Source of the DNA: an uncultured Gammaproteobacteria bacterium
GTDB taxonomy: Bacteria > Patescibacteriota > Patescibacteriia > 2-01-FULL-39-33
Reading direction: 5' to 3'
Length of the DNA: 64,000 nt
NCBI GenBank assembly: GCA_964512625.1
Contig: CAZEKG010000002.1
Location: 109,393 to 173,392, forward strand
In this document: positions 2,947 through 22,990 of the stretch, piece by piece
Layout: the number at the start of each line of letters is the position of its first letter
How positions within the stretch are numbered: the stretch's first letter is position 1
Position numbers and translations under genes: made by a program
Notes under the pieces: generated by a model
The model's database searches: none
The model's input: the letters and a program-made list of their open reading frames with translations, nothing else
Told to the model about the DNA's origin: nothing

Positions 2947-5900
2947 ATGAGGTTAAAAAAATCTTCTCAAAATAAATTACTGATCATCTTGACTGTTTTA
3001 GTTTTGTTTTTAAGTTTCGGTTCGGCAGTTTTTGCCCAAACCCAAGCTAATGTTGACCTGACTAATGCTCAAATGGGCTTAGGCGGGGCAGATCTGAAAT
3101 CAGTAATTAAGGGGATTGTTAACGTTTTCTTTTCCTTTTTAGGCGTTATTGCTGTTCTAATACTTCTTTATGGCGGTTTTGTCTGGATGACGGCTGCTGG
3201 CGATGAAAGTAAGGTGGAAAAAGCGAAGAAAACCATTATTGCCGCTGTTATCGGTTTAGTGATTATTTTTTCCGCTTTCGCTATTGTTTCTTTCGTCTTT
3301 AGGGCTCTTAATGTAGCGACTGGCATACCAGGAACAGAACCTTGCAGTAATATTGGCGAAGTGACCAGCTGTTCGACTAGCGACAATTGTTCAGGTACTC
3401 GATATTGCCAAGCTTCCGGTTATTGGGGAGCTTGCTTAAAAACCGATCCGACTTGTCCGGGTGATTCTTTTTACAGTAATCAATTCTCCTATATTTTAGG
3501 CTTCTCTCTCGCGGGTAGTGGCTGGAATAAGAACTTAGGTCGCAATTTTTCCGGTACGGTTGCTGTACCTCAAAGCGCTAATCTATTTATTTACGGCTAT
3601 GCCCATGATCGGGAGAATATTATCAGTGAGATGAGTTTATGGGGCAGTCTTTCTTCTAGCTCAGAGGCTAAATTAGCTCAATTCAACAATCTTAATTCTG
3701 TTAAACAGTTAATCGGTTCCAAGGAGTATAATGTAGTTAGTAAGGCGAGTACAACCTGGAATACTTCCGGTTATGCGGTTGGTGATATCATTACTTTAAA
3801 AATTAAAGTTTCAACCGGCGCCTTCGCCTCAAAGAATATTAAGGCAAAAGTGTATGCTAGCCATTGTTTTAATGGTATAAAAGATGCAGACGAAAAAAAT
3901 GTTGATTGCGGCGGTAGTTGTTCGGCTTGTGATGGCGATTCATGTTTCGTAGCGACTAACTCAACTTGTTCAGGAGATAATTGTTTAAGTGGTATTTGCG
4001 GCGATAATTGCAAATGCGCCAGCTTGCCGATTATTGATTATATTTCTCCGGCAAAGGATGTTAATGGCGATAGTAATCCTTATCGCAGCGAAACCCTTGA
4101 TGATGATCTACCAAACGGCGCCCCGGGCAATATTATAACTATTTGGGGTCGCAGTTTCGGTTCCGCAACGGGTACGGTTATTTTTAAGGACAAGCAATCT
4201 GGCCAGCAATTCACTTCTTCGATTGCTCCTTGTAAGAGTAATAATTGGAATAATAATCAGCTTACAGTTCTTATTCCTCAATCAATTACTAATACTTTAA
4301 ATGTCGTTGATGAGAGTGGAGTAACTAGTACGACTCTTAATTATGAAGTTTTTATCGAAACAGCTAACCATCTTTTAAGCGAAGCCGGCAAGGGCTTCCA
4401 GGTTAATAAGATTGAAAGACCGGGAATTTGCAATATGGATCCTGACTCCGGCGTTTATCCTACAACAACAACCATTAACGGCATTAAATTTCCGATTTCA
4501 GGAACTCAAAATGTGCTTTGGAAAATTAAAAATGGCAGCCTTTTTGAAACGATAACTAGTACCTTAGCTAAGTCATGGACGGCGGCCAGTGTTATTGATA
4601 CTGCCTTGGAAAATAAAAATGGCGTTTCTAGTGTTAGGATATATAATGGATCTCAATATAGTAATTATTTTAAATTTTTATTAAGTTCCGGTGGCTTAAA
4701 CGCGCCTTGCGGTTTAGATCCCCGGGCTTGCGATCAAGACGTAACAACTTGCAATACCGGTTTGGCTTGTGATAAGGCTTCATGTACTTGCCAAAAAAGC
4801 AATACCAGTTGTTCTGTTGGCGAGAAGCAAGTTTGTGATAATGGTGGTTGCGCCGGCGATCAGACTTGCCGTCCGGATGGCGTTTTCGGTAATTGCATTC
4901 AAAGAGATAGTAAATGCATTCCAAAAACAGATAAAGTTTCTATTGCTGGGCAGACTTTTTATTCCTGGGCTTTCTTAACGAACCCGGGTGGCAATGGCCA
5001 ATCATGCGGGTATGATTATTGGGATGTTTGCGATATAAAAGGTTGTGGTAGTGGCTTAGCTTGTGATACGACGGGAACGAGCAGTCCTTACAATATTAAT
5101 AAAACGCCCTGTACTTGTTGGACGAAGGTTTGCGAACCGGCGACAGTCAGCTCGACTTGTAAAGCAATCGGTAAATGCGAAGCGAGAAGTGTTTGTAATT
5201 CTCAGGGAACTGCTTGGGGTGAGTGCGTTAAAGTAGATTATACTTGCAATCCTTTCCCAGAGATTGAGCCGGCCAGGCAAGCTTTTTATAGCTGGTCTTT
5301 TATGGCGTTTAAAAATGATCCTTTTAATGCCCCGGAGGTTATAGAAGATTGTAATAGGACAATTACTTGCCGAGACGGTTCAAAATTGCCATCGCCGACG
5401 CCTTGGTATAATCCGGTAGTCGGAGCTACCGACGAGGGCTGGTCAACAACAACCCATCCTAATTTAGTCGGTAATGTCCTCAATCCGAAAGCTTGCGTTA
5501 ACGCTATTATTTCAGCTCGGTTTAGCTTACCCATGAAACTTTCTTCTTTTGCCGGCAATATAAAAATAATGCAAATGGATGAGGCAAGCAGCACTTGGAG
5601 CGAAATTCCGATAACTGTTTCCAATTACCAATTATTGTCTGGAGGAACTCAATTAAACTTAAATCATGCTAATTTTTCTCCAGCTACTCGCTACAAGGTC
5701 GTTTTAAGGCAGGGTATTGCCAGTGACGCCGGAGTTAAGATTAAAAAATACAATGATGTTATAGGAAGTGATAAGAGAGATTGTAATGTCGGCGGTATAA
5801 ATGATGCGGCTTATTGCTGGAATTTTGTAACTCGAGCTGCAACCGATCCCGACCTTCTTTGTAAAGAGGGTTGTCCGACCTGCAGTCCCGATCCGACTCA

Positions 5901-8900
5901 GATGTTTTATTATGGAGAAGAAAAAGCCAATAATGCGGACTTAGATAGCGCCGATAATGTTTGCTTAATGCTTAATCCGTTTAATTATGATTGGTTTTGG
6001 GATAAGAAAAGCTACAATAATTTAGAGCGGATCGATGTTACTAATAACGATCTATTGAAATATGTTGCCGAGTCAAGCACTTTCGCTTATGGAAATGATG
6101 GTAAAAATGATCCATATCAAACCAGTACGGCGCGTGGCGAAACGATTAGCGACCCGGCTAAATCAACGAAGATTTTAGCTACCTTAGTAAAAACTGGGAA
6201 AGCGGGAATTTGCTATGTGGAAAATGATTTTACCAACCCGATTGTTATGGAAGATCAGTCTTGTAATAAGGGAACGACTCAAAGCCCGAGTCCTTGGAAG
6301 GGTTCGACGGATGCTTGTATAAATGGCGTTATTTCCTTGAGGTTTAGTCGTAATATGGTTAATAGTACGCTAGTTTCCGGTTCTGAAAAGACAGGTACGC
6401 AGGTTATTGATAAACAAACGGTTAATTTTAAGTATTATGAATCTCACCCTAATATTGTAATTCAAAAGTGTAATTCAAATACTGTTACTTCAACCGATAT
6501 AAACGCTTGTACTGATGTGGGAGTTGATTGGAAAACTATTTTATTTAAGTATAGCCATCAAACCATTTCGATTGCCGATATGATGGCCTCTAGTAGTGAG
6601 AATGTAAATGAGTTGCCGGAAGGCTTATCAATTTTGCCTTCGAGCAATCTTGATAAGAACCAGTGGTATCGAGTTATTATTATCGGCGGCCAAAACGGCG
6701 TTAGAGGAGCAAAAATAATTAATAGCAACGAAACTAAAGACGGTGTTTTAAGAGGAACCAATAATTCGCCATTGACGGATATGAACGGCGACGGCGAAGA
6801 TGATTATTATTGGATTTTTAAGACAGCCTCGGATAAATGTCCTATAAATTCGGTAACTGTTTTGCCTTTTTCCAAATTCATGAAATTTGTCTCCGAAACT
6901 CAAACTTATAACGCTTGGCCTCAAGCGGCTAATTGTAATATCTTAAATCCTTTGACTTACAATTGGAACTGGAAAGCTTTGATTGATTTAAATGATGATA
7001 GGTCTGATAATACCGATCCGGGAACCGGCAATGATATCGTTAAAGTATGTTCAGTAAATAATACTACTTGTTCTTCTTATGATAATCCTACCAGCTTCCA
7101 AGTTAATGCGACCGGAGAATCAGAAGGCTTAGTCAATCTTAAGGCTAGAGCTTTAGATACGGCTAAAACAGGGGAAGATTGGACGAGGGATAAATGGGGT
7201 TATAGTGTTCTTCAGGTCGGTTACGGCGGCTTTTATATCAGGAAACATTCTCCGGATTCGACTAAATGCTTAAATCCGGAAATAACCGCTCTTTTCTCTC
7301 TTGATGCTAAGTCTGAGTCTATAAATTTAGGCAGTAATTTCAGCTTATATAAGTGTCAGGGCGGTAATTGCAATACTGAAAAAGAGTTGGCCGAGCTTTC
7401 ACCTTTAGGACTTGGTACGGCTAATGCTAATCCTTTCTTGTCTAATCTTTTAAGAACGGAGCCGAAAGTTTATTTAGAGGCTAGTAGCACTTACCGGGTT
7501 ATCGCTAAAAGCGGCGAGAGCGGCTTGAAAGCTTGGAATGGCAATAGTTTGACCGGCTTGAATTATCGAACTAGCGGAACAGGCAACGGAGAGCAATGCG
7601 ATAAAGATGCCTATCCTTGGAAAGAGTTTAGCGGTTTATGTACTGATAAATGCCTTATTAGTACTTCAACAGCTTTTGCTGATTTATGTTCCTATCAAAA
7701 AGGAAGATTCGCTGAATGTAAATATACAACCAGTACCGCCGCTTATTGCGATAATACCTGTCACGCTTTAGGAAATACTAATACCGGTTCTTGCGGCAAT
7801 GGCAAGCTTGAAGCTGAGGAAGAATGCGATGATGGTAACTTTAAAGACGGCGATGGCTGTTCTTCAAGATGTCTTTTAGGAGGTTCAAGTGATAAATGGG
7901 GTTCAGTTTGCGGTAATGGCAAGCGCGAATACGGCGAATTATGTGATGATGGCAATCGAAGGGGTGGCGATGGCTGTTCTTCGGCTTGCTTAACTGATTC
8001 TCGTAAGATGGGAACGGCGACTAGCTCCCCGGTTTGCGGTAATAGTAGGGTAGAATTCGGAGAGTTATGTGATGATGGTAATAAGATCAGCGGCGATGGC
8101 TGTTCTAATAAATGTTTATTAGAGGGCTCGTCTAATGGCGCTGTTTGCGGCAATAAGGTTATGGAAAACGGCCAAAACGACAGCTATGCTTGGGATTTTA
8201 AAGTTGAAAGCAATGCTCAAGAATGCTTAGGTCCTAATTTAGAAAATAATCCTTGCCCTAATGGTATTTGGCGAGTTAATTTCCCGGATAGTAATAACAT
8301 GGAAGGGACAAAATATAATCAATTCTCAATTAAAGTTTGGCAAAAATCAAGCGTTGATGCTGGTAGTTGTGAAGTGATTGCCCAGGGTTTTTGGAAAACG
8401 ATTTTTAGAAAAGTTAAAGTCGCAGTTTTAAGGCTTTTCGGCCAAACCGCCTCGGCTGCTGATTATTGGTGTCCTTTTATTGAGGAGCAGGCTTTTGGAG
8501 CTAGTGATTTAACTGAGATGAAAAAAGGCAATTATGTTCGTACTTTTGACAATCCGGGAGTCAGCAATGCCGGACAAATAATTGCTTATACAGATGAAGT
8601 CGGCAATTATATTATTAATTTTGCTAGGACTGATGCGGCTTCTTGGCCGGCTAATGATTATAAGATGACTCTCAGTTATACTAGAGACCTGATTAATCAG
8701 GAAATAAATACGGATATAAAATTCGCTATTTCAAGGAATGCTTGTCCGATAAACGATGTAATGGTTAATGTTTGGCCTAAAGGCGAAGAAAGAAAGGATG
8801 ATACTTTCTTCTGTGCCGGAAATGATTGCGGTTCTAAGACTGCCGATCCTTATGATGATGATATGTCAGCTAATTGGACATACAGCAAGAATGGTTACGA

Positions 8901-11900
8901 TCTTAAAGAAGGAGTGGGTTATTTAGGCGGTAACCAGCATCTTTATCGCGCCTGGGCCTTAACTAATAGATATGGTCGGCCAATGGTTGTTCAGGCTAAT
9001 TTTAATTGGGACATGGAACATATTCCTTTTAATACTAAGACGACTAGCTCTGATTTCTCTCTGACAACTTACAATGGTGATAAATGGATTACTTCTGGCG
9101 ATGTTGGCGGACGAGACCTTTTAAATGTTACTGCTTCCGACGTTAATACTTTGGCGAGTACGACAGTAATGATTAGAACTTTCCTTTGTAATAATCCTTG
9201 GCCGACGCCGGCGAAATTCCCTTATATTGATTCTCGAGTGAATTGCGCTAATCCCGCTAATTGTGTTAATACCAACTTTGAGCTTTTTTATTGTCGAGAT
9301 AGCGGCGATAAGGAAACGACGGATGATGATCTTCCGGCCTTAACTCCTGATAACCCGATTGTCGTTCCAGGGGCTTCTGGTTCTGAAATTGTTAAAGAGT
9401 TTATTTTCCCAAGAGCCGATAAGACGACTAGCTCGGATGCAGTTGGTTTAAGAGTTATGAATAATAGCGGTAATGCGCTTGCCGTTTCAAAGATCTATTT
9501 AAGTCCGGCTGAGTGGTATTTTAATCAGTTTGATAAGGCGCGTCAGGGTAAGCCTAAAGGCCTTGTTGTTGATGGCTATCAGGCAGTCGAAGAAGGTAGG
9601 ACGGCTTATGTTAGCGCCGCCGATCTTAATGAGAATTTAGGAAATGCTTTTAATAATATTTATCTTCTTTCTTATAATGATAAAGCTGATCAGGGGACGA
9701 GAAATATTTATTCTCAAATATTAAGCAACCTGACTTTCAATACCGGAGAAGCGGAAAACGGCGGATTACTTGATAGCGCAGGGTCTTGTACTAATAACCC
9801 TGCTTATAAATGCTTTACTGATAAGGATTGTAAGGGATTCGGTTTTTGCGATTCCCCGAAATCGAGGATTACGAGGGATACGAAGAGGTTAGCCGATATT
9901 AGCGATATAAACCTAGGATTGGAAAAATATAAAGCTGTTAAGAGATGCAGTAATGACCATAGTAAAACTTGTTTAAGTAGTTCGGTTTGCGCCGATAACG
10001 GAACTTGCGGTAATTATTATCCTACTTTGACTTCTGGAACTTATGTGGCTAATAATTCTTTAAGTTCTTGGCTTTCTTGGGAAAGTACTTTGGCGGCGGC
10101 TTTAGGTATGATTTTACCGGTTGATCCAAGGAATGAGTTATCTGGCTGTACCGGATCTTATTCTTCGACGACTTGCTGGAGCGAGATTAAGAAAGAAATG
10201 GCTTGCCCTTCCGATTCCTCATTTAATTATTTTTATCATGCGGATAAAAATCCGACTTCTACTATTATGGGTACGGCTAAGATTTTAGGAACTAAATGCG
10301 AATATTGCGTTAATAGTAATGGTGATGATATATGGTCTAATTCAGACTATACTAATTCAATCTTTGGGCCTACTAATTCGGTTATTAGATCTTTCTGTAT
10401 TGATAAGGTAAAAGAAACTTGCGGTAATGGAATTTCCGATATTGCTAATGGTGAAAATTGCCATAATTGCCCGTCTGACTTTAAGGCGGCTTGTAGCAAT
10501 GGGGCGGTTTGTCAAAACTTGGGCACGAATATTAGTCCAAACTGGCAATGTAAGGCTTATGATACAGATGGAGATAATTTTAGCGATGCTATTGATAATT
10601 GTAAGTACGTTAAAAATGGTTGGAATTGGCCGGGGTTATGTATTGCTAATGGCAATGCTTCGCAGTCTTATTTATGTGATCAATTTGATAGTGATCGCGA
10701 CGGAGTTGGCAATGCCTGTGATAACTGTTATCAGGCATTAGGTCCTAATGATAAGCCCGATCCATCTAATAAAGACTCTGATGGCGACGGAATCGGCGAT
10801 GCTTGCGATAACTGCCTTAATAAATGGAATCCGGGACAGGAAGATGATGACGGCGATAAAGTCGGCAATACTTGCGATAATAGTAAGGATGTTAAAAACG
10901 GCGCTTCAGGTAATAATATGACATGTCCTTTGTCTACTCCTCAATCTTATTGCAATCAAAAAGATACTGATGGCGACGGGGTTGGCGATGCCAGCGATAA
11001 TTGTCTTAATAAGAAAAACCCCGATCAAAAGGACTCTGATACTGACGGTTTAGGGGATGTTTGCGATAATTGTCCGACTAAGGCTAATCCTGACCAAAAA
11101 GATGGCGATTTAGACAGCTATGGCGACGCTTGCGATAACTGCCCGACGACTTTCAATCCTAATCAGGATTCGAGGGCTTGTTATAATCCTAATTGCGGCA
11201 ATGGGGCGCAGGATCGCGGAGAGGCTTGTGATTGCGGCACTGACCCGAACAACATTCCTTCCACATGTAATTATATAAATAATTTTAATGTTAATATCTT
11301 AGATATTGAATATAACAAATCCGTACGGGTTTGTATGAATAACTGCCAATTAGATCAAAAATTTGAAGGACCTAAATGTGGGGATGGTATAAAAAATGGT
11401 GCGGAGTCTTGTGATAATGGGTCTCAAAATGGCGTAGTTCCAGCTGCTGGTGGTTATGGTCAGCCAGCCGTAGAGTATTGTACTACTGAGTGTCAAATTG
11501 CTAGTGTAGCCTCTCCAAGGTGTGGCGATGGAACTATTCAGTCGGGGGAGGTTTGTGATACGCCTAATCAAGATGGTTGCGCTCCTGATTGTAAGTCGAA
11601 ATGCGGCAATGGAATTGTGGAAAAAGCCCAAGGAGAAATCTGTGACGATAGTAATGGGAATTCAGGCGATGGTTGCAGTTCTACTTGTAGGGTAGTAGAA
11701 ACTGGCTATAATTGCTTTTATCGTTTTGTTTCCGGAAGATTAGAGAGCGTTTGTCAATCAATTTGTCCGCCAGATAGAGGAGTAGGTAGGTGGACTAGCG
11801 AGGTTTTGAAATATGGCAACAATAATACTTCTAATAATTTTGGTACAATTGGCTCTGTTTATAATAGTTGGCTCCAAGTTCCAAAATGCAAATCTTTTAG

Positions 11901-13104
11901 TGGTATATTTAAAGCTGATGTAAATGTTTCCGGCTCGCCTGGTAGCTTGGCTGTGGTTTTTGTTTCGGATATTTCCGGATCTATGGACGGCAAAACTAAT
12001 GCCTTGTCTCAGGCGATTACTTCTTCATCTGATGAATTATCTAAGAAATTTGGAGCTAATATTGCTCTAGTCCATTTTCATACTAATACTATAGGTGATA
12101 AAGAGTTAATTGGTGATATGTTTTCTGAGAGCTGTTCAGGTAATTATGATTCTAATGGGGTCTGGAGTAATGGTAAGGATACTAAGTATTGTTGCGCTAG
12201 CTCTAATGGTAGGGGTAATTATTTTTGCAACTCTAGCGATTTATTAACGGGTTTTTCTAGTTTAACTAGCTTTATTAGCGATAGGACAAGTAAGATCTAT
12301 GGGAGATATGTCAATGGGGGTACTCCTACGGCTTCCGGATTAGATAGAGCTAGAGCAATTTTAAATACATCTACGGCAGATAAGAAAATAATTATTTTGA
12401 TGTCAGATGGCATGTATGATGGAATTAATCCTTTAAGTACCTCTACTAATATAAAGGCTGGTGGTACTAAAATATATGTAGCGGCATTTACTACTAGTTC
12501 TACTCTCGCTAATATGATGTCTACATGGTCAAGTAATAATAATAGTTCTTGCGGGAGTGGTTATTGCTATTATAGTGGTAATGTTACTGATTTATATGAA
12601 AATATAACATCTAATATTCAGTCGGAATTGGATTCTTACTCGGTAACTATTTTTAATAATAATACTTATTATTATGGAATAAGTCCCTATACTTATAATC
12701 AATCAAAGTATTCCTGGACGGACGGTTATAGCTCTAAAGTTTCAATTCCTAATACAAGCAATAACACTCCTTCAGGCGTAACTTTATCTGCTTTTACTGG
12801 TTTTTGTGCTCCTTCTAATGGCACAGGTGATTATGTTGGTAGAAGTATAACCGTAAAAACGACTAACCCGATTTCTGCTGGAACTAGCTGGAAGGTTAAT
12901 ATCAGTAATGTAACCATGGAGTATTGTCCTCTTGATCCAGTTGGCTATTCTTCTGATATTAATAATCCGACGCTTGGATTATCTCAATCGAACTCTCAAG
13001 TCGCCGGAGCTTATGAGGAAAATGACAATCTATATCAAAGATTCATTGCTACGATAGCTAATAGTTGGAAATTCCTTTTTTCATCAATCATTAATCTTTT
13101 TTAA
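2947..13104 (+). CDS. Giant (3385 aa) multidomain cell-surface adhesin-like protein. It has a Sec signal peptide and a VirB2/TrbC-pilin-like membrane hairpin. Its modules are EGF-like Cys-rich segments, Myxococcus-type cysteine-rich repeats, thrombospondin type-3 Ca-binding repeats, and a vWA domain with a MIDAS motif.
   Basis: The signal peptide is MRLKKSSQNKLLIILTVLVLFLSFGSAVFA|QT. The hairpin (nt ~3076-3306) is LGGADLKSVIKGIVNVFFSFLGVIAVLILLYGGFVWMTAAGDESKVEKAKKTIIAAVIGLVIIFSAFAIVSFV. Cys-rich repeats of the form CGNGxxExGExCDDGNxxxGDGCSxxC occur 3-4 times at nt ~7792-8160 and again at ~11194-11695. Seven TSP3 repeats (DxDxDGxGDxCDNCxxxxNPxQxD) lie at nt ~10561-11170. The vWA domain (LAVVFVSDISGSMDG ... 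SGLDRARAIL ... KKIIILMSDGMYDG) lies at nt ~11944-12500. A single uninterrupted 10.2-kb ORF. Confidence 0.7.
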   Translation: MRLKKSSQNKLLIILTVLVLFLSFGSAVFAQTQANVDLTNAQMGLGGADLKSVIKGIVNVFFSFLGVIAVLILLYGGFVWMTAAGDESKVEKAKKTIIAAVIGLVIIFSAFAIVSFVFRALNVATGIPGTEPCSNIGEVTSCSTSDNCSGTRYCQASGYWGACLKTDPTCPGDSFYSNQFSYILGFSLAGSGWNKNLGRNFSGTVAVPQSANLFIYGYAHDRENIISEMSLWGSLSSSSEAKLAQFNNLNSVKQLIGSKEYNVVSKASTTWNTSGYAVGDIITLKIKVSTGAFASKNIKAKVYASHCFNGIKDADEKNVDCGGSCSACDGDSCFVATNSTCSGDNCLSGICGDNCKCASLPIIDYISPAKDVNGDSNPYRSETLDDDLPNGAPGNIITIWGRSFGSATGTVIFKDKQSGQQFTSSIAPCKSNNWNNNQLTVLIPQSITNTLNVVDESGVTSTTLNYEVFIETANHLLSEAGKGFQVNKIERPGICNMDPDSGVYPTTTTINGIKFPISGTQNVLWKIKNGSLFETITSTLAKSWTAASVIDTALENKNGVSSVRIYNGSQYSNYFKFLLSSGGLNAPCGLDPRACDQDVTTCNTGLACDKASCTCQKSNTSCSVGEKQVCDNGGCAGDQTCRPDGVFGNCIQRDSKCIPKTDKVSIAGQTFYSWAFLTNPGGNGQSCGYDYWDVCDIKGCGSGLACDTTGTSSPYNINKTPCTCWTKVCEPATVSSTCKAIGKCEARSVCNSQGTAWGECVKVDYTCNPFPEIEPARQAFYSWSFMAFKNDPFNAPEVIEDCNRTITCRDGSKLPSPTPWYNPVVGATDEGWSTTTHPNLVGNVLNPKACVNAIISARFSLPMKLSSFAGNIKIMQMDEASSTWSEIPITVSNYQLLSGGTQLNLNHANFSPATRYKVVLRQGIASDAGVKIKKYNDVIGSDKRDCNVGGINDAAYCWNFVTRAATDPDLLCKEGCPTCSPDPTQMFYYGEEKANNADLDSADNVCLMLNPFNYDWFWDKKSYNNLERIDVTNNDLLKYVAESSTFAYGNDGKNDPYQTSTARGETISDPAKSTKILATLVKTGKAGICYVENDFTNPIVMEDQSCNKGTTQSPSPWKGSTDACINGVISLRFSRNMVNSTLVSGSEKTGTQVIDKQTVNFKYYESHPNIVIQKCNSNTVTSTDINACTDVGVDWKTILFKYSHQTISIADMMASSSENVNELPEGLSILPSSNLDKNQWYRVIIIGGQNGVRGAKIINSNETKDGVLRGTNNSPLTDMNGDGEDDYYWIFKTASDKCPINSVTVLPFSKFMKFVSETQTYNAWPQAANCNILNPLTYNWNWKALIDLNDDRSDNTDPGTGNDIVKVCSVNNTTCSSYDNPTSFQVNATGESEGLVNLKARALDTAKTGEDWTRDKWGYSVLQVGYGGFYIRKHSPDSTKCLNPEITALFSLDAKSESINLGSNFSLYKCQGGNCNTEKELAELSPLGLGTANANPFLSNLLRTEPKVYLEASSTYRVIAKSGESGLKAWNGNSLTGLNYRTSGTGNGEQCDKDAYPWKEFSGLCTDKCLISTSTAFADLCSYQKGRFAECKYTTSTAAYCDNTCHALGNTNTGSCGNGKLEAEEECDDGNFKDGDGCSSRCLLGGSSDKWGSVCGNGKREYGELCDDGNRRGGDGCSSACLTDSRKMGTATSSPVCGNSRVEFGELCDDGNKISGDGCSNKCLLEGSSNGAVCGNKVMENGQNDSYAWDFKVESNAQECLGPNLENNPCPNGIWRVNFPDSNNMEGTKYNQFSIKVWQKSSVDAGSCEVIAQGFWKTIFRKVKVAVLRLFGQTASAADYWCPFIEEQAFGASDLTEMKKGNYVRTFDNPGVSNAGQIIAYTDEVGNYIINFARTDAASWPANDYKMTLSYTRDLINQEINTDIKFAISRNACPINDVMVNVWPKGEERKDDTFFCAGNDCGSKTADPYDDDMSANWTYSKNGYDLKEGVGYLGGNQHLYRAWALTNRYGRPMVVQANFNWDMEHIPFNTKTTSSDFSLTTYNGDKWITSGDVGGRDLLNVTASDVNTLASTTVMIRTFLCNNPWPTPAKFPYIDSRVNCANPANCVNTNFELFYCRDSGDKETTDDDLPALTPDNPIVVPGASGSEIVKEFIFPRADKTTSSDAVGLRVMNNSGNALAVSKIYLSPAEWYFNQFDKARQGKPKGLVVDGYQAVEEGRTAYVSAADLNENLGNAFNNIYLLSYNDKADQGTRNIYSQILSNLTFNTGEAENGGLLDSAGSCTNNPAYKCFTDKDCKGFGFCDSPKSRITRDTKRLADISDINLGLEKYKAVKRCSNDHSKTCLSSSVCADNGTCGNYYPTLTSGTYVANNSLSSWLSWESTLAAALGMILPVDPRNELSGCTGSYSSTTCWSEIKKEMACPSDSSFNYFYHADKNPTSTIMGTAKILGTKCEYCVNSNGDDIWSNSDYTNSIFGPTNSVIRSFCIDKVKETCGNGISDIANGENCHNCPSDFKAACSNGAVCQNLGTNISPNWQCKAYDTDGDNFSDAIDNCKYVKNGWNWPGLCIANGNASQSYLCDQFDSDRDGVGNACDNCYQALGPNDKPDPSNKDSDGDGIGDACDNCLNKWNPGQEDDDGDKVGNTCDNSKDVKNGASGNNMTCPLSTPQSYCNQKDTDGDGVGDASDNCLNKKNPDQKDSDTDGLGDVCDNCPTKANPDQKDGDLDSYGDACDNCPTTFNPNQDSRACYNPNCGNGAQDRGEACDCGTDPNNIPSTCNYINNFNVNILDIEYNKSVRVCMNNCQLDQKFEGPKCGDGIKNGAESCDNGSQNGVVPAAGGYGQPAVEYCTTECQIASVASPRCGDGTIQSGEVCDTPNQDGCAPDCKSKCGNGIVEKAQGEICDDSNGNSGDGCSSTCRVVETGYNCFYRFVSGRLESVCQSICPPDRGVGRWTSEVLKYGNNNTSNNFGTIGSVYNSWLQVPKCKSFSGIFKADVNVSGSPGSLAVVFVSDISGSMDGKTNALSQAITSSSDELSKKFGANIALVHFHTNTIGDKELIGDMFSESCSGNYDSNGVWSNGKDTKYCCASSNGRGNYFCNSSDLLTGFSSLTSFISDRTSKIYGRYVNGGTPTASGLDRARAILNTSTADKKIIILMSDGMYDGINPLSTSTNIKAGGTKIYVAAFTTSSTLANMMSTWSSNNNSSCGSGYCYYSGNVTDLYENITSNIQSELDSYSVTIFNNNTYYYGISPYTYNQSKYSWTDGYSSKVSIPNTSNNTPSGVTLSAFTGFCAPSNGTGDYVGRSITVKTTNPISAGTSWKVNISNVTMEYCPLDPVGYSSDINNPTLGLSQSNSQVAGAYEENDNLYQRFIATIANSWKFLFSSIINLF
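3050..3320 (+). repeat. ~270-bp direct repeat. The coding sequence for the pilin-like hairpin domain is duplicated between the two giant genes; the partner copy is at nt 1-270.
   Basis: By eye, nt 1-270 and ~3050-3320 align at roughly 75% nucleotide identity. Examples: ggcggagccgatcttaag vs ggcggggcagatctgaaa; tatggcggttttatttggatgacggctgg vs tatggcggttttgtctggatgacggctgc; tttgctattgtttcttttgtt vs ttcgctattgtttctttcgtc. The encoded protein segments match. Confidence 0.6.
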
Positions 13105-18387: not shown

Positions 18388-18415
18388 TTGACAGCCTCAT
18401 TTCTAGTGTTATAAT
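18388..18415 (+). promoter_or_regulatory. Putative sigma70 promoter for nrdD, followed by a ~140-nt leader.
   Basis: The -35 element TTGACA is at 18388-18393. After a 16-nt spacer, an extended -10 element TGTTATAAT ends at 18415. Confidence 0.5.
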
Positions 18416-18553
18416 GTTAGTAACAACGAGGGCTTTTGGAGGTGATAAACCAGTCAAAATCCATTAGAGGGTAATTGTTTGTTTTTAAATCTTTTTTGTC
18501 GCTAAAATAGCCCTATCAAGTCAAACAAATAGAATTCATATAATATTAAAGCC

Positions 18554-20605
18554 ATGGAGCCAACTCAAATCAAGCAAATTAGGAAAAGAGACGGAAGTAT
18601 TACTGACTTCGATCAAGATAAAATCACCCAAGCCCTTTTTAAATCATTAAAGGCGGCTGGTTTGGAAGACTTGGAGTTGGCTAAGCGGGTTTCTGATAAA
18701 GTTATTCAGGGACTTAATAATAAATTCCATCCTCGCTCTATTCCGGCGATTGAAGAAATCCAGGATCTTGTTGAAGAAACTTTGATTAAAGAAGACTTGG
18801 CTAAAGCGGCTAAATCATATATCATCTATCGCGAACAGCATGCCCGTTTAAGAGAAATTAAGGACATGATAAACTCCGATGATATTATCGAAGGCTATCT
18901 TAAGCAATTGGATTGGAGAGTGAAAGAGAACGCTAATATGGCTTATTCTCTCCAGGGATTAAATAACCACGTCGCTTCAGCTGTCAGCTCTCACTATTGG
19001 CTTAATAAGGTTTATCCGCCGGAAATAAGAGATGCTCATACTAACGGTAGCGTTCATATCCATGACCTGCAGCTCTTAGCTGTTTATTGCTGCGGTTGGG
19101 ATCTTCAAGCTCTTCTTAGGCTTGGTTTTGGAGGTGTGGATGGTAAAGTGACTAGCGGCCCAGCTAAACATTTCAGGGTGGCTTTGGGTCAAATTGTTAA
19201 TTTTTTTTATACGCTTCAAGGCGAGGCGGCTGGAGCCCAGGCTTTCGCTAACTTCGATACGCTCCTAGCTCCTTTTGTGAGGTATGACGGCTTAGATGAG
19301 AAGGCGGTTAAACAGGCGATGCAGGAGTTTATCTTTAATATGAATGTTCCGACTAGGGTCGGCTTCCAAACGCCTTTTACCAATTTAACTTTTGATTTAA
19401 CTTGTCCCGGAACTTTGGCTGACGATCATGTCTTGATTGGCGGTATTCCTCAGGCAGAGACCTATAAGGATTTTCAACATGAAATGGATGTTATTAATCG
19501 AGCTTTTGCCGAAGTTATGATGGCTGGCGATTCTAAGGGCCGAGTTTTTACTTTTCCTATTCCGACTTACAATATTTCCAAGGATTTTGATTGGGAGAAT
19601 AGGATTTTAGACCCGGTCTGGGAGATGACTTCTAAATACGGTATTCCTTATTTTGCCAATTTTATCAATAGCGACATGAAAGCCGAAGACGCGAGAAGTA
19701 TGTGTTGTCGTTTAAGGTTAGATAATCGAGAATTAAGAAAGCGAGGCGGCGGTATTTTTGCGGCCAATCCATTAACTGGCTCGATTGGCGTGGTAACTAT
19801 AAATCTTCCGAGAATTGGTTATTTATCAAAGACCGAGGAAGCTTTCTTCAGCCGTCTTGGTCAGATCATGGATCTTTCTAGGTTAAGTTTGAAGCTGAAA
19901 CGAGAAGTTTTGGAAAGCTTTACTGAGCTCGGCTTATATCCTTATAGTAAATTTTATCTTAAAGACATTAAAGAAAGATTTGGAGAATATTGGAAAAATC
20001 ATTTTAATACTATTGGTATTAATGGCATGAACGAATGCGTGCTTAATTTTATGGGCCGTCCTTTAAGCACTGAAGAAGGTAGGGAGTTTGCTGTTAAGAT
20101 TATGGATTTCATGCTTAATCGCTTAGCTCAATATCAGGAAGAGGACAATCAGCTTTATAACCTTGAGGCGACTCCGGCGGAAGGAGCGACTTATCGCTTT
20201 GCTAAGAAAGATAAGGAGATAAATCCAGATATTATTGTTGCTAATGAAGAGTCTTATCAGGAAAAAGGAGCGGCGCCTTATTATACTAATTCAACTCATT
20301 TGCCAGTCGGCTATTCGACTGATATCTTTGAGGTTTTAGAAAATCAGGATATTTTACAGACTAAATATACCGGCGGAACCGTTATTCATGGCTTTATCGG
20401 TGAACAATTGCCAGATATCGAGAGTACTAAGAATTTAGTTAGAAAGATAGCCGAGAATTTCCGTTTACCTTATTATACTCTGACTCCAACTTTCTCCGTT
20501 TGCCCGAAGCATGGCTATTTATCAGGCGAGCATCATTTTTGCCCGCTCTGTGACGAAGAAATCGGCTTTATTAGGGAACAGGAAGATAAATTGCCTTTGA
20601 TTTAA
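18554..20605 (+). CDS. nrdD: Anaerobic ribonucleoside-triphosphate reductase (class III) NrdD: main body with an N-terminal ATP-cone, ending inside the C-terminal zinc ribbon.
   Basis: The N-terminus has an ATP-cone (KRDGSITDFDQDKITQAL). The catalytic core carries CCRLRLD and the ANPLTGSIGVVTINLPRIGY region. The C-terminus has CPKHGYLSGEHHFCPLC and then a stop. The glycyl-radical motif is not in this ORF. Confidence 0.8.
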   Translation: MEPTQIKQIRKRDGSITDFDQDKITQALFKSLKAAGLEDLELAKRVSDKVIQGLNNKFHPRSIPAIEEIQDLVEETLIKEDLAKAAKSYIIYREQHARLREIKDMINSDDIIEGYLKQLDWRVKENANMAYSLQGLNNHVASAVSSHYWLNKVYPPEIRDAHTNGSVHIHDLQLLAVYCCGWDLQALLRLGFGGVDGKVTSGPAKHFRVALGQIVNFFYTLQGEAAGAQAFANFDTLLAPFVRYDGLDEKAVKQAMQEFIFNMNVPTRVGFQTPFTNLTFDLTCPGTLADDHVLIGGIPQAETYKDFQHEMDVINRAFAEVMMAGDSKGRVFTFPIPTYNISKDFDWENRILDPVWEMTSKYGIPYFANFINSDMKAEDARSMCCRLRLDNRELRKRGGGIFAANPLTGSIGVVTINLPRIGYLSKTEEAFFSRLGQIMDLSRLSLKLKREVLESFTELGLYPYSKFYLKDIKERFGEYWKNHFNTIGINGMNECVLNFMGRPLSTEEGREFAVKIMDFMLNRLAQYQEEDNQLYNLEATPAEGATYRFAKKDKEINPDIIVANEESYQEKGAAPYYTNSTHLPVGYSTDIFEVLENQDILQTKYTGGTVIHGFIGEQLPDIESTKNLVRKIAENFRLPYYTLTPTFSVCPKHGYLSGEHHFCPLCDEEIGFIREQEDKLPLI

Positions 20606-20606
20606 T

Positions 20607-20792
20607 GTGCTTATTAATAACTCTAAATATATGATGGAAGGTGAAGTAAAATTAGAAAGACAGCCTTGCGAGGTTTATTCTCGCGTAGTCGGCTATCTTC
20701 GCCCAGTAGGGCAATGGAATCCTGGAAAACAGGCCGAGTATAAGGATAGGACGGCTTTTAGAGTAACCGTTGATACCGGCTGTGGCTGTTAA
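20607..20792 (+). CDS. nrdD: NrdD C-terminal glycyl-radical segment, encoded in a different frame directly after the nrdD stop. It is either a frameshifted or split gene, or a separately translated fragment.
   Basis: The segment carries PCEVYSRVVGYLRPVGQWNPGKQAEYKDR, the conserved NrdD glycyl-radical motif (RVxGY plus WNxGK). The ORF starts with GTG at 20607, 1 nt after the TAA of the main ORF, in the +1 frame. Confidence 0.6.
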   Translation: MLINNSKYMMEGEVKLERQPCEVYSRVVGYLRPVGQWNPGKQAEYKDRTAFRVTVDTGCGC

Positions 20793-20804
20793 TTTAGAAA
20801 TCTT

Positions 20805-21500
20805 ATGCTTATCGGAGGTTTGCAACCGGTAACTTTATTGGATTATCCCGAAAAAGTGGCAGCGATCATATTCACCGCAAGATGCAATATGCGCTGTCCT
20901 TTTTGTTATAATTCCAACTTAGTCTTACCGGAAAAAATAGAAAAAGTTGATTATTACAAGGAAGAAGATATTCTGAAGTTTTTTGATAAGCGAAAAAAAC
21001 TGCTTGACGGCGTAGTTATTACCGGAGGCGAACCAACCTTGCAAGCTGATTTAGGAGATTTTTGTTTAAAACTAAAGGAAATGGGTTATAAGATTAAGTT
21101 GGATACCAATGGTCTTTTGCCCGAGGTAGTAGAAAAGCTGATTTCAAAAGGGTTAATTGATTATATTGCTATGGATATTAAAGGTCCTCTTAGTCGCTAT
21201 AGCGAGATAACTAGGGTTGAGATAAATTCTGAATCGATTAAGAAAAGTGTTAAGTTGATTATGTCGAGTGGCTTAGGTTATGAGTTTAGGACGACTTTGG
21301 TTAAGGGGTTGCATGAATTGGAGGCAATGAAAGAGATTGGTGAGCTTATTAAGGGGGCTGATAAGTATTATCTCCAATCTTTTACGCCGGGACAAGGAAC
21401 GCTCGAGCCAGGCTTTAATGGGAGTTTTTTTACGGTAGTTGAAATGACTGAATTTAAGGAAATTACTGATAAATATGTAAAAGTATGCAAGATTAGGTAA
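20805..21500 (+). CDS. nrdG: Anaerobic ribonucleotide reductase activating protein (radical SAM)
   Basis: It has the NrdG-type N-terminus with a CxxxCxxC cluster (ARCNMRCPFCYN) and the GGEPT motif. It is adjacent to nrdD. Confidence 0.8.
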   Translation: MLIGGLQPVTLLDYPEKVAAIIFTARCNMRCPFCYNSNLVLPEKIEKVDYYKEEDILKFFDKRKKLLDGVVITGGEPTLQADLGDFCLKLKEMGYKIKLDTNGLLPEVVEKLISKGLIDYIAMDIKGPLSRYSEITRVEINSESIKKSVKLIMSSGLGYEFRTTLVKGLHELEAMKEIGELIKGADKYYLQSFTPGQGTLEPGFNGSFFTVVEMTEFKEITDKYVKVCKIR

Positions 21501-21894: not shown

Positions 21895-22990
21895 ATGCAA
21901 GATCTTCTAAATAGGATAAAAAATCTTAAGGAGAAAATCTCCGACGCTTGGAGGTTACTTTGACCTTGATAAATCGATAAAAGAATTAAACAGTCTTGAA
22001 GCGGAAATATCTAGTCCGGATTTTTGGGCTGTTCCGGAAAAAGCTAAGATAGTCAGTCAAAAATACGAGGGATTAAAAAAAGAAATAACATCTTGGCAGG
22101 AAATTGAAAAAGAGGTTAATGAGCTTGAGGAATTGCTTAAGATTGTCGAGACTGAGGATGAAAAAACTTTTCAGGAAATAGAAAAAAAGCTTGACGAATC
22201 GGAAGCGAGCTTTAAAAAAATGGAGTTCGCTATATTATTCTCAGGTAAATATGATCAAGGAGGAGCGATTCTTGCGATTCATGCCGGAACCGGCGGGGTT
22301 GATGCTCAGGATTGGTCGCAAATTTTAATGAGGATGTATTTAAGATTTTGCGAAAGACATGATTTTTCAGCTAGTATCGTCGATAAGACTGATGGCGCGG
22401 AAGCAGGTATCAAAAGCGTTACTTTAGAAATTTCCGGTCGTTATGCTTATGGCTGGCTAAAATCGGAAAGCGGAGTCCATCGCTTAGTCCGCATTTCTCC
22501 TTTTGATGCCGAAAAGATGAGGCATACTTCTTTTGCCTTGGTTGAGGTTTTACCGGAAGTCGAAGAGGTTAAAGAGATTGAATTGAAAGACAGTGATTTA
22601 AAAATAGAAGTTTTTCGAGCTGGAGGCCATGGCGGGCAATCGGTTAATACAACTGATTCGGCTGTACGCTTAACTCACTTATCCACAGGTATAACCGTTA
22701 AATGCCAGAACGAAAGGTCCCAAGTCCAAAATAAGGCCATGGCTCTTAAAATCCTTAAGAGCCGTTTAGTCTCTTTTTATGAAGAAGTTGAGGAGGGTCG
22801 CATCAAAGAGCTTAAGGGCGACTATCAAAAGGCTCAGTGGGGCAATCAAGCTCGCTCTTATGTCATGCAACCGTATCAATTAGTTAAAGATCATCGGACA
22901 GATCATGAAACGGCCGATATTGAAAGGGTTTTAGACGGCGAAATTGATGATTTTGCCGAAGAGTATTTAAAGAAGGTGGTAAAAAAATAA
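21895..22990 (+). CDS. prfB: Peptide chain release factor 2 with a programmed +1 ribosomal frameshift (CTT TGA C at 21958-21964).
   Basis: ORF0 (MQDLLNRIKNLKEKISDAWRLL) ends at an in-frame TGA inside the motif tggAGGttaCTTTGAc; the SD-like GGAGG plus CUU UGA C is the classic RF2 autoregulatory site. The +1 frame continues DLDKSIKELNSLEAEI and joins the long ORF, which contains the GGQ motif (RAGGHGGQSVNTTDS). Confidence 0.85.

What the first reader, a model, noticed from the sequence alone, without database searches (positions are those of the whole stretch)
20560..20795. NrdD glycyl-radical motif encoded in a separate reading frame immediately after the nrdD stop codon
The 683-aa NrdD ORF ends inside the C-terminal zinc ribbon (CPKHGYLSGEHHFCPLC...stop). 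The essential glycyl-radical motif (YSRVVGYLRPVGQWNPGKQAEYKDR) is in the +1 frame, starting with GTG one nucleotide after the TAA.

There are three possibilities:
- an assembly or sequencing frameshift;
- a genuine pseudogene, although an intact nrdG activase follows;
- a bona fide split in which the glycyl-radical segment is made as a separate, translationally coupled peptide, analogous to the GrcA spare-part of pyruvate formate-lyase.

The fourth zinc-ribbon Cys (PCEVY) lies in the second ORF, which favours a frameshift. A true split would be novel for class III RNR.
Basis: seen in the sequence. Interest (0 to 1): 0.55.

Follow-up and report, generated by a model that had tools for sequence, protein, structure and literature searches.

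The report
Two-piece anaerobic ribonucleotide reductase
The anaerobic ribonucleotide reductase gene here is genuinely and conservedly split, with the short segment that carries the essential glycyl radical made as a separate ~53-residue peptide; this two-piece arrangement is widespread in tiny uncultured bacteria (and the peptide also occurs alone in phages) but was not found described in the searchable literature.

Summary
nrdD (18554-20605, 683 aa) stops 17 residues after its zinc ribbon. The RVVGY glycyl-radical segment lies in the +1 frame in a 53-61 aa ORF (20607 or 20631 to 20792), followed by nrdG.

It is not an assembly error, a pseudogene or a programmed frameshift:
- An independent assembly, 93% identical in DNA, keeps the split. 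Codon changes are 126 synonymous/0 non-synonymous in the body and 5/0 in the peptide.
- All 120 closest full-length homologues lack the radical motif and end in the same conserved tail (…CPxC-DxEIGYIREQxxxLP[LI]-stop).
- In about 20 other species the peptide has its own ATG 0-187 nt downstream, in all three frame offsets. In Halanaerobium, nrdG lies between the two genes.
- An exhaustive search finds about 5,000 clusters matching the peptide profile. The best 150 are almost all stand-alone small proteins.

Fused relatives have only a 3-8 aa linker at this point.

Best reading: an obligate two-subunit class III RNR whose radical loop is supplied in trans. Related stand-alone copies occur beside fused nrdD genes and alone in phages, resembling the GrcA/Y06I spare parts of pyruvate formate-lyase. 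No description was found in the literature. Docking could not be modelled.

The parts
18388..18415 (+). Promoter-like site upstream of nrdD (TTGACA-16-TATAAT with TG, 12/12 match)
   Evidence: Consensus scan. It is only a consensus match, and function is inferred.
18554..20605 (+). nrdD 'body': class III ribonucleotide reductase large subunit, 683 aa. It has the ATP-cone, the catalytic barrel with the invariant finger-loop CC (C384/C385) and the complete Zn ribbon, but no glycyl-radical motif. Stop TAA is at 20603-20605.
   Evidence: PF03477 3e-20; PF13597 5e-182; NF006126 1028 bits against a cut-off of 548. All 120 closest homologues are the same length class and lack the motif. Against L081 there are 126 synonymous and 0 non-synonymous codon changes.
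20501..20551 (+). Zn-ribbon ligand motif CPKH-x9-CPLC (aa 650-666), entirely inside ORF1
   Evidence: It aligns with CxxC...CxxC of P. copri NrdD and C...H...CxxC of T. maritima NrdD. The Zn ligands of tmNrdD are CxxxHx6CxxC (PMC4493059).
20552..20602 (+). Split-type C-terminal tail DEEIGFIREQEDKLPLI. Its conserved motif D-x-E-[IV]-G-[YF] and ...LP[LI]-stop replaces the 3-8 aa linker of fused NrdDs.
   Evidence: The tail and the stop position are conserved across dozens of 90%-identity clusters.
20606..20630 (+). Spacer between the two ORFs. It is A/T-rich and has no SD, like most gene starts in this genome. It contains the alternative start GTG 20607, which is ATG in L081.
   Evidence: SD present before only 5 of 45 long ORFs in the window.
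20631..20792 (+). Small glycyl-radical subunit gene, 53 aa from the conserved Met (61 aa if started at GTG 20607). It has the motif CEVYSRVVGYLRPVGQWNPGKQAEYKDR, the radical Gly codon GGC at 20691-20693, and a C-terminal CGC pair. Stop TAA is at 20790-20792.
   Evidence: The peptide is 100% identical in L081 despite 6.7% DNA divergence (5 synonymous, 0 non-synonymous codon changes).
20805..21500 (+). nrdG, the radical-SAM activase (231 aa), 12 nt after the small ORF
   Evidence: PF04055 3e-24, PF13353 9e-9. The order body, peptide, nrdG holds in 20 of 26 loci examined. No + strand terminator-like site lies between the nrdD stop and the nrdG end.

Best explanation
This is a naturally split class III (anaerobic) ribonucleotide reductase. 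One operon (promoter, nrdD body, small ORF, nrdG) encodes a 683-aa catalytic subunit that carries the ATP-cone, the barrel, the thiyl-radical finger loop and the Zn ribbon. A separate ~53-aa peptide carries the whole glycyl-radical loop (…CEVYSRVVGY…). The two are translated independently. The peptide must bind the body non-covalently so that its Gly sits next to the finger-loop cysteine, and NrdG must generate the radical on the peptide.

Shown here: the split is real, ancient, under strong purifying selection and widespread, and it has its own starts and variable spacing and frame.

Inferred, not shown: the peptide docks in the position of the normal C-terminal radical loop. Making the oxygen-labile part a cheap, replaceable 6-kDa subunit would let the 78-kDa body be re-armed after O2 cleavage. 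Phage-borne and duplicated stand-alone copies would work the same way, in trans.
For: (1) Anatomy: Pfam and NCBIfam profiles are covered contiguously by ORF1 plus ORF2.
(2) Independent assembly: L081 (Logan, a different sample) is 93.3% identical in DNA and has the same split. The stop is kept (TAA to TAG). Codon changes are 126 synonymous/0 non-synonymous in the body and 5/0 in the peptide, against 30/18 in nrdG.
(3) Closest homologues: all 120 best full-length homologues (67-100% identity) lack the radical motif and end in the same tail with the stop within 1-2 residues. About 105 of 116 C-terminal fragments do the same.
(4) Junctions elsewhere: in about 20 species from several phyla the peptide ORF has its own ATG 0-187 nt after the body's stop. 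Frame offsets 0, 1 and 2 are all represented. In at least 9 loci the peptide frame is closed by stops between the two ORFs. In the isolate Halanaerobium saccharolyticum, nrdG lies between them.
(5) Start signals: canonical GGAGG precedes the peptide ATG in SD-using taxa. This window's genome rarely uses SD at all (5 of 45).
(6) Fused relatives have only a 3-8 aa linker (CPxC-TIKQP-CEVYSR), whereas split ones share a derived extension D-x-E-x-G-Y. P0224 is a fused form with the extended linker.
(7) Family size: 4,999 50%-identity clusters match the peptide profile at E<=1e-3 (this total includes fused NrdDs). Of 142 new representatives among the best 150, 132 are small proteins carrying only the radical segment, 123 of them starting with Met, and only one is a full-length NrdD.
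(8) Function in trans is supported by relatives. In 71 of 80 phage loci the peptide gene has no NrdD body or NrdG within up to 10 kb, and it sits among head, terminase and adaptor genes. In Minisyncoccales a 92-aa Zn-ribbon plus radical-loop protein lies between a complete nrdD and nrdG and is 31/32 aa identical to that NrdD's own C-terminus.
(9) The genuine +1 frameshift site of prfB in the same window has the full canonical signal (GGAGG-TTA-CTT-TGA-C). The nrdD junction has none.
Against: There is no direct evidence (proteomics, ribosome profiling, activity, EPR) that two polypeptides are made or that they assemble. Both AlphaFold2 attempts on the joined sequence gave pLDDT below 50 for the tail and the peptide, so docking is not modelled. 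In this particular window the +1-frame ORF opens inside the last codons of ORF1 and a slippery-looking A-TTT-A overlaps the stop, so a minor frameshift product cannot be excluded from sequence alone. The repair or 'replaceable cartridge' rationale is speculation by analogy with GrcA. The literature search covers only open-access text, so an existing description (for example in RNRdb notes or subscription journals) could have been missed.
Confidence: 0.85

Rival explanations
1. Assembly or sequencing frameshift: a 1-nt indel error broke a normal single nrdD ORF.
For: The radical segment is in the +1 frame only one base after the stop. The window probably comes from a metagenome-assembled genome.
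Against: Relative to fused NrdDs the junction contains about 100 extra nucleotides, not a 1-nt change. An independent assembly at 93% identity has the same structure with no indels in 3.6 kb. All 120 closest homologues stop at the same place. Relatives show every frame offset and spacers up to 187 nt.
Confidence: 0.01
2. Pseudogene: nrdD was inactivated by truncation and the downstream ORF is a decaying remnant.
For: ORF1 lacks the essential glycine.
Against: Codon changes against L081 are 126 synonymous/0 non-synonymous in the body and 5/0 in the peptide. Motif residues are invariant across hundreds of stand-alone peptides. The tail, the stop and the Met start are conserved. An intact nrdG follows.
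Confidence: 0.01
3. Programmed +1 ribosomal frameshift or a short translational hop at ...TTG-ATT-TAA-T... (AUU to UUU, or ATT 20600 to ATT 20613) that makes a single fused NrdD, as in prfB or T4 gene 60.
For: In the window and in L081 the +1 frame is open from 20601, a stop codon sits in the A-site position and the P-site codon is followed by U. GTG/ATG at 20607 lies in the same frame.
Against: Nothing about the junction is conserved in relatives except the split itself. Frame offsets 0, 1 and 2 all occur, spacers reach 187 nt, stops close the peptide frame in at least 9 loci, and nrdG intervenes in Halanaerobium. There is no SD-like stimulator, unlike the true prfB site 1.3 kb downstream. 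Rfam finds no recoding element. The peptides have conserved Met starts, and SD sequences where the organism uses them. Phages carry the peptide alone.
Confidence: 0.04
4. An inserted element (small intron, intein remnant or mobile insertion) interrupts the gene and is removed at the RNA or protein level.
For: About 100 nt (3n+1) separate the two profile-matching parts. nrdD genes are known homes of group I introns (T4) and inteins, and several relatives here carry ~320-aa insertions (about 1,004 aa).
Against: No Rfam intron family matches in the window. The 'insert' is translated and conserved as protein on both sides: the tail D-x-E-I-G-Y...LPL and the head MEG...RQP. The flanks of 14-18 aa are far too short for a split intein. 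The spacer DNA is not conserved in length or sequence.
Confidence: 0.02

Closest known systems
Canonical class III ribonucleotide reductase NrdD with activase NrdG (E. coli, phage T4, T. maritima, P. copri)
   Same: Same domains and motifs in the same order: ATP-cone, barrel with finger-loop Cys, Zn ribbon, RVxGY glycyl-radical loop, and an adjacent radical-SAM activase.
   Different: In every characterised NrdD the radical glycine is on the same polypeptide as the barrel. Here a stop codon, a spacer and a new start separate them, and the body carries a derived conserved tail.
GrcA/YfiD of E. coli and Y06I of phage T4 (autonomous glycyl radical cofactors, 'spare parts' of pyruvate formate-lyase)
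   Same: A small stand-alone protein carries a glycyl-radical loop that functions in trans with a large catalytic protein and its activase. A phage-borne version exists. The oxygen-labile part is separable (PMC8683613, PMC13450708).
   Different: GrcA is homologous to the PFL C-terminus (PF01228), not to NrdD. It is ~14 kDa with a whole radical domain, and it rescues a parent that has its own glycine. The window's peptide matches only PF13597, is ~6 kDa, lacks the Zn ribbon, and its parent has no glycine, so it is obligate. The Zn-ribbon plus radical-loop proteins next to fused nrdD (L019/L020/L030) are the closer functional analogue of GrcA.
Split class II RNR NrdJa/NrdJb, and the split class I nrdA of Aeromonas phage Aeh1 (the latter from my own knowledge)
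   Same: An RNR catalytic subunit is divided into two adjacent genes, with the C-terminal functional module on the second polypeptide (PMC9669993).
   Different: Those belong to different RNR classes and chemistry (B12 or di-iron/tyrosyl). The break is at a different place, the second piece is a large folded domain, and no radical-bearing residue is separated from the barrel.

Membership tests
Class III RNR catalytic subunit NrdD (PF13597 / TIGR02487 / NF006126) | Catalytic barrel domain scoring above the curated family cut-offs | tested here: met
   PF13597 scores 607 bits (cut-off 26), NF006126 1028 bits (cut-off 548) and TIGR02487 514 bits (cut-off 326) for ORF1.
Class III RNR catalytic subunit NrdD (PF13597 / TIGR02487 / NF006126) | Finger-loop cysteine(s) that form the thiyl radical | tested here: met
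   RSMCCRLRLDNRELRK, with C384 and C385 invariant in 57 aligned bodies. The assignment to the finger loop rests on family knowledge and was not tested structurally.
Class III RNR catalytic subunit NrdD (PF13597 / TIGR02487 / NF006126) | C-terminal Zn ribbon (CxxC/H...CxxC) | tested here: met
   CPKH-x9-CPLC lies in ORF1 and aligns with the Zn motifs of 8P23 and 4U3E. Cys/His/Cys/Cys ligation is documented for tmNrdD. Metal binding itself was not testable.
Class III RNR catalytic subunit NrdD (PF13597 / TIGR02487 / NF006126) | Glycyl-radical motif RVxGY on the same polypeptide as the barrel | tested here: not met
   ORF1 and all 120 of its closest homologues lack it. The motif is on the separate ORF2. 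The system is therefore a class III RNR, but ORF1 alone is not a complete NrdD.
Class III RNR catalytic subunit NrdD (PF13597 / TIGR02487 / NF006126) | Cognate radical-SAM activase NrdG encoded nearby | tested here: met
   nrdG lies at 20805-21500. Synteny holds in 20 of 26 loci examined.
Class III RNR catalytic subunit NrdD (PF13597 / TIGR02487 / NF006126) | Anaerobic NTP reduction dependent on a glycyl radical | not testable with these tools
   This needs enzymology and EPR.
[quoted passage not shown] | Small stand-alone protein bearing a glycyl-radical motif | tested here: met
   53-61 aa with RVVGY. Hundreds of stand-alone homologues exist.
[quoted passage not shown] | Sequence homology to the PFL C-terminal glycyl-radical domain (PF01228) | tested here: not met
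   The only Pfam and NCBIfam matches are to NrdD families. It is not a GrcA family member; the resemblance is functional only.
[quoted passage not shown] | Acts as a spare for a parent enzyme that has its own radical domain | tested here: not met
   The window's parent lacks the glycine. This feature is met instead by the L019/L020/L030 proteins that sit beside a fused nrdD.
[quoted passage not shown] | Restores activity to an O2-cleaved enzyme after activation by the activase | not testable with these tools
   This requires biochemistry.
Programmed +1 frameshift genes (prfB type) | Conserved slippery site with an in-frame stop and an upstream SD-like stimulator; the downstream frame is open and contiguous in relatives | tested here: not met
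   The junction lacks an SD-like element. Relatives have all three frame offsets, long spacers and intervening stops. The real prfB site in the window does show the canonical signal.

The most novel reading that the evidence does not exclude
The ~50-aa peptide is an exchangeable glycyl-radical 'cartridge'. NrdG radicalises it, possibly while it is free or only loosely bound, and it then plugs into the NrdD barrel. After oxygen cleaves it, a fresh copy replaces it without loss of the 78-kDa body. Phages exploit the same socket by bringing their own cartridge to keep or redirect host dNTP synthesis, and organisms with fused NrdD keep an extra Zn-ribbon cartridge as a true spare part. This would extend the spare-part principle from pyruvate formate-lyase to ribonucleotide reduction. 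It would also show that a glycyl-radical enzyme can work with its radical site on a separate polypeptide.
Probability: 0.4. Interest if true: 0.9.

Novelty: new variant of a known kind. Interest (0 to 1): 0.78.

Why it matters
To my knowledge, every biochemically studied glycyl-radical enzyme carries the radical glycine on the catalytic polypeptide. [quoted passage not shown] A large, conserved clade of class III RNRs with the radical loop on a separate ~6-kDa subunit contradicts that picture, and so do the phage-borne and duplicated stand-alone versions.

It also offers a natural system for two open questions. One is how activases gain access to the buried glycine. The other is whether radical domains can be exchanged after oxygen damage.

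There are practical consequences too. Thousands of 'truncated' nrdD genes and tiny 'anaerobic ribonucleoside-triphosphate reductase' ORFs in CPR/Patescibacteria and other genomes should not be scored as pseudogenes or fragments in metabolic reconstructions. The peptide gene in phages is a previously unrecognised auxiliary gene.

Tried and rejected
- Rfam scan of the whole window at gathering thresholds found only two tRNAs and no intron or recoding element.
- A PDB sequence search with the junction region alone gave no hits. Searches with ORF1 and with a fused relative were informative.
- The +1 frameshift (A-TTT-A) and a 10-nt ATT-to-ATT hop were considered from the sequence and rejected on comparative grounds.
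- A split intein was rejected because the flanks are only 14-18 aa.
- The look-up of encoding contigs for the window's exact ORF2 (61 aa) and ORF1 returned nothing, so the source record and organism name were not recovered. A CPR/Patescibacteria origin is inferred from the names of the homologues.
- Two AlphaFold2 runs on ORF1 joined to ORF2 gave pLDDT below 50 for residues ~640-736. One used bodies only in the alignment and one used 8 bodies plus 47 correctly placed peptides. Nothing can be concluded about docking.
- MAFFT repeatedly misplaced the short peptides when many bodies were present.
- The first NJ tree was distorted by inteins. An HMM-aligned tree placed the split forms in one contiguous region but cannot resolve the number of split or fusion events, and it has no bootstrap.
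- Six literature searches found no description of a split NrdD or of an NrdD-type autonomous glycyl-radical protein.
Full report
OBSERVATION. The sequence is as described. An ORF runs from ATG 18554 to TAA 20603-20605 (683 aa) and ends ...SVCPKHGYLSGEHHFCPLCDEEIGFIREQEDKLPLI*. One base later, GTG 20607 opens a +1-frame ORF of 61 aa (to TAA 20790-20792) containing ...ERQPCEVYSRVVGYLRPVGQWNPGKQAEYKDRTAF.... A radical-SAM activase gene follows at 20805-21500. Pfam's NRDD profile is covered contiguously by the two ORFs: positions 1-532 in ORF1 (E=5e-182, plus an ATP-cone) and positions 531-562 in ORF2 (E=5e-10). NCBIfam NF006126 behaves the same way and has no dedicated model for the small protein. 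About 100 nt between the two matched parts have no counterpart in the profiles (14 codons of ORF1 tail, the stop, 1 nt, and 18 codons of ORF2 head). The difference from an ordinary nrdD is therefore not a single-base shift.

TWO CORRECTIONS. First, ORF1 does not end inside the zinc ribbon. CPKH-x9-CPLC aligns with the CxxC...CxxC of P. copri NrdD and with the C...H...CxxC of T. maritima NrdD, whereas the position of the 'CEVY' cysteine is not a Cys in either structure. The T. maritima structure paper reports Zn ligation by CxxxHx6CxxC (PMC4493059). Second, an alignment of stand-alone homologues shows a conserved Met start, 'MEG[ED]...', which corresponds to ATG 20631/20634 and lies 25-28 nt after the stop. 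GTG 20607 remains possible because it is ATG in the closest relative.

IS IT AN ARTEFACT OR A DEAD GENE? No. An independent Logan assembly from another sample (L081) is 93.3% identical over 3.6 kb, has no indels and shows the same arrangement. The stop is kept (TAA to TAG). Codon changes are 126 synonymous and 0 non-synonymous in the body, 5 and 0 in the peptide, and 30 and 18 in nrdG. All 120 best full-length homologues of ORF1 (67-100% identity, each a separate 90% cluster) lack the radical motif. They end in the same tail, D-[DE]-E-[IV]-G-[YF]-[IV]-R-E-Q-x-x-x-L-P-[LI], with the stop within a residue or two; a few carry an intein-sized insertion. Of 116 C-terminal fragments retrieved with the last 203 residues, about 105 are of this type.

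IS IT RECODING? No. Among 80 loci from different species, about 27 of 65 classifiable loci are split. In about 20 of them the junction could be read. The small ORF has its own ATG 0 to 187 nt after the body's stop, and frame offsets 0, 1 and 2 are all represented. In at least nine loci the peptide frame is closed by stops between the two genes. In the cultured Halanaerobium saccharolyticum, nrdG sits between body and peptide. Where the organism uses Shine-Dalgarno sequences (Caldimicrobium; L024; L038), a canonical GGAGG precedes the peptide's ATG. The window's own genome has an SD before only 5 of 45 long ORFs, so its absence here means nothing. Rfam finds no intron or recoding element. The real +1 frameshift site of prfB, 1.3 kb downstream, carries the full canonical signal TGGAGGTTA-CTT-TGA-C, and the nrdD junction has nothing comparable. 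For this window alone a minor frameshift product at A-TTT-A cannot be excluded from sequence, but it is not what is conserved.

WHAT DISTINGUISHES SPLIT FROM FUSED. Fused relatives join the ribbon to the radical loop by only 3-8 residues (CPxC-TIKQP-CEVYSR). Every split body instead continues with a shared extension, D-x-E-x-G-Y..., of 13-77 residues. One homologue (P0224) is fused but has the extended linker, which makes it a plausible intermediate or a re-fusion. In an HMM-aligned NJ tree with inteins removed, the split forms occupy one contiguous region and the short-linker fused forms make up separate clades. The tree is crude, and the number of split events (one to a few) is unresolved. 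Gene order is body, peptide, nrdG in 20 of 26 loci examined. In the window a perfect sigma-70 consensus lies upstream of nrdD, and no + strand terminator-like site separates the three ORFs.

HOW BIG IS THE FAMILY? A word-index search with ORF2 returned 352 hits, and the best 120 were all 40-80 aa proteins. An exhaustive profile search of 1.84 billion cluster representatives found 4,999 at E<=1e-3 and 2,567 at E<=1e-10; these totals include fused NrdDs. Of 142 new representatives among the best 150, 132 are small proteins with only the radical segment (123 start with Met; median length 61 aa). Seven have their own double-CxxC zinc ribbon in front of the radical loop (81-146 aa). Only one is a full-length NrdD.

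EVIDENCE THAT THE MODULE WORKS IN TRANS. In three Minisyncoccales/Paceibacterota genomes, a 92-aa Zn-ribbon plus radical-loop protein lies between a complete, fused nrdD and nrdG. In two of the three genomes it is 31/32 aa (87-93/96 nt) identical to the C-terminus of the NrdD in the same genome, and 26/32 aa in the third. In IMG/VR there are 165 confirmed matches. In 71 of the best 80 loci the peptide gene has no NrdD body and no NrdG within up to 10 kb (median 15.5 kb held, several contigs complete). Its neighbours include a minor head protein, a scaffolding protein, a head-tail adaptor and the large terminase. A radical loop that travels alone in phages must act with a body and an activase supplied by the host.

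MECHANISM. Shown: two conserved, separately initiated ORFs that together make up the full NrdD domain set, plus the activase. Inferred: the peptide occupies the position of the normal C-terminal radical loop beside the finger-loop cysteines (C384/C385, invariant in 57 bodies), and NrdG makes the radical on it. The conserved body tail and the peptide's charged N-terminus may hold the two together. More speculatively, because O2 cleaves glycyl-radical enzymes at the glycine, putting the labile part on a 6-kDa subunit would make repair cheap. Two AlphaFold2 runs on the joined sequence failed to place the peptide (pLDDT below 50), so docking remains untested.

COMPARISON WITH WHAT IS KNOWN. The system is a class III RNR by every domain test except one: the radical glycine is not on the catalytic polypeptide. 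It works like GrcA/YfiD and T4 Y06I, the spare parts of pyruvate formate-lyase (PMC8683613), but it is not homologous to them, and here the peptide is obligate. Split RNRs are known in class II (NrdJa/NrdJb; PMC9669993), but with a different break and a different chemistry. [quoted passage not shown] Six full-text searches found no description of a split NrdD or of an NrdD-type autonomous radical protein. The library lacks most subscription journals, so this is absence of evidence within that limit.

VERDICT. It turns out to be one member of a large, apparently unrecognised family. Novelty: a new variant of a known kind. Interest 0.78. Confidence in the two-subunit reading 0.85. The exchangeable-cartridge and phage-hijack reading has a probability of about 0.4.

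Noticed in passing
L019:3643-3921, L020 about 3640-3920, L030 about 3656-3940 (also L041, L042; P0285, P0292, P0293, P0326, P0349, P0360): A second class of stand-alone proteins (81-146 aa) has its own double-CxxC zinc ribbon followed by the NrdD radical loop. In Minisyncoccales it lies between a complete fused nrdD and nrdG and is 31/32 aa identical to that NrdD's own C-terminus, so it is a candidate true spare part for class III RNR. In Desulfobacterales/Syntrophales (L039, L051, L053, L065, L067) it is unlinked to nrdD; in L065, for example, it lies between DUF2400 and fumarate hydratase genes.
   Followed up: partly
L082-L241 (IMG/VR viral contigs), e.g. L082:~3010-3160, L139:~3000-3120: Phage contigs carry the NrdD-type glycyl-radical peptide gene alone. 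In 71 of 80 loci there is no NrdD body or NrdG within up to 10 kb. The gene sits among head, scaffold, adaptor and terminase genes, so it looks like an unrecognised auxiliary gene analogous to T4 Y06I.
   Followed up: partly
window 21896-22990 (shift site 21955-21964): prfB (RF2) shows the classic programmed +1 frameshift. ATG 21896 opens a short ORF that ends at TGG-AGG-TTA-CTT-TGA-C, with an internal SD-like GGAGG. The main RF2 frame continues from there (FDLDKSIKELNSLEAEISSPDFW...).
   Followed up: partly
window 20778-20789 (ORF2 C-terminus ...TGCGC); P0003-P0034, P0133, P0137, P0146, P0152, P0176: Many small radical peptides end in a Cys pair (CGC, CC, CxxC), and some split bodies also end in one (…ACC, …CPEC, …CAC). 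This recalls the C-terminal redox cysteine pair that re-reduces class I/II RNRs. Its significance is unknown.
   Followed up: no
P0138, P0139, P0148, P0151, P0154, P0157, P0171, P0182, P0232, P0239; L007 tail: A subset of split bodies has long tails that end in a conserved terminal motif ...ER[DN]II.AIA-stop. Another subset ends ...K.LEKEG.EV.IE-stop. Function is unknown; these may be docking motifs.
   Followed up: no
L026:~870-1250 and L036:~3260-3620 (Acetothermia/Bipolaricaulota): Here the radical segment is in another frame with no ATG, and long open frames overlap (…VSKFREDERGNLILEDGTVIPEEERTKAEVYSR…). In these two MAGs the junction looks like a true frameshift, either programmed or an error, unlike the window type. 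The same 'ENGDL.LDNG..IPA.KR' head occurs on many phage peptides.
   Followed up: no
L006, L007, L040 (body ORFs 1012-1066 aa); P0428-P0440 (~1004 aa): Several split-type NrdD bodies carry a ~320-aa insertion, presumably an intein. It distorted the first phylogeny.
   Followed up: no
window 18388-18553: A perfect sigma-70 consensus promoter (TTGACA-16-TGnTATAAT) lies about 140 nt upstream of nrdD. The leader it leaves was not examined for NrdR boxes or other regulators.
   Followed up: no
window, whole: Shine-Dalgarno motifs precede only 5 of 45 long ORFs, and starts sit in A/T-rich contexts. GC content is 39%. A giant ORF of 3,385 aa lies at 2947-13104.
   Followed up: no
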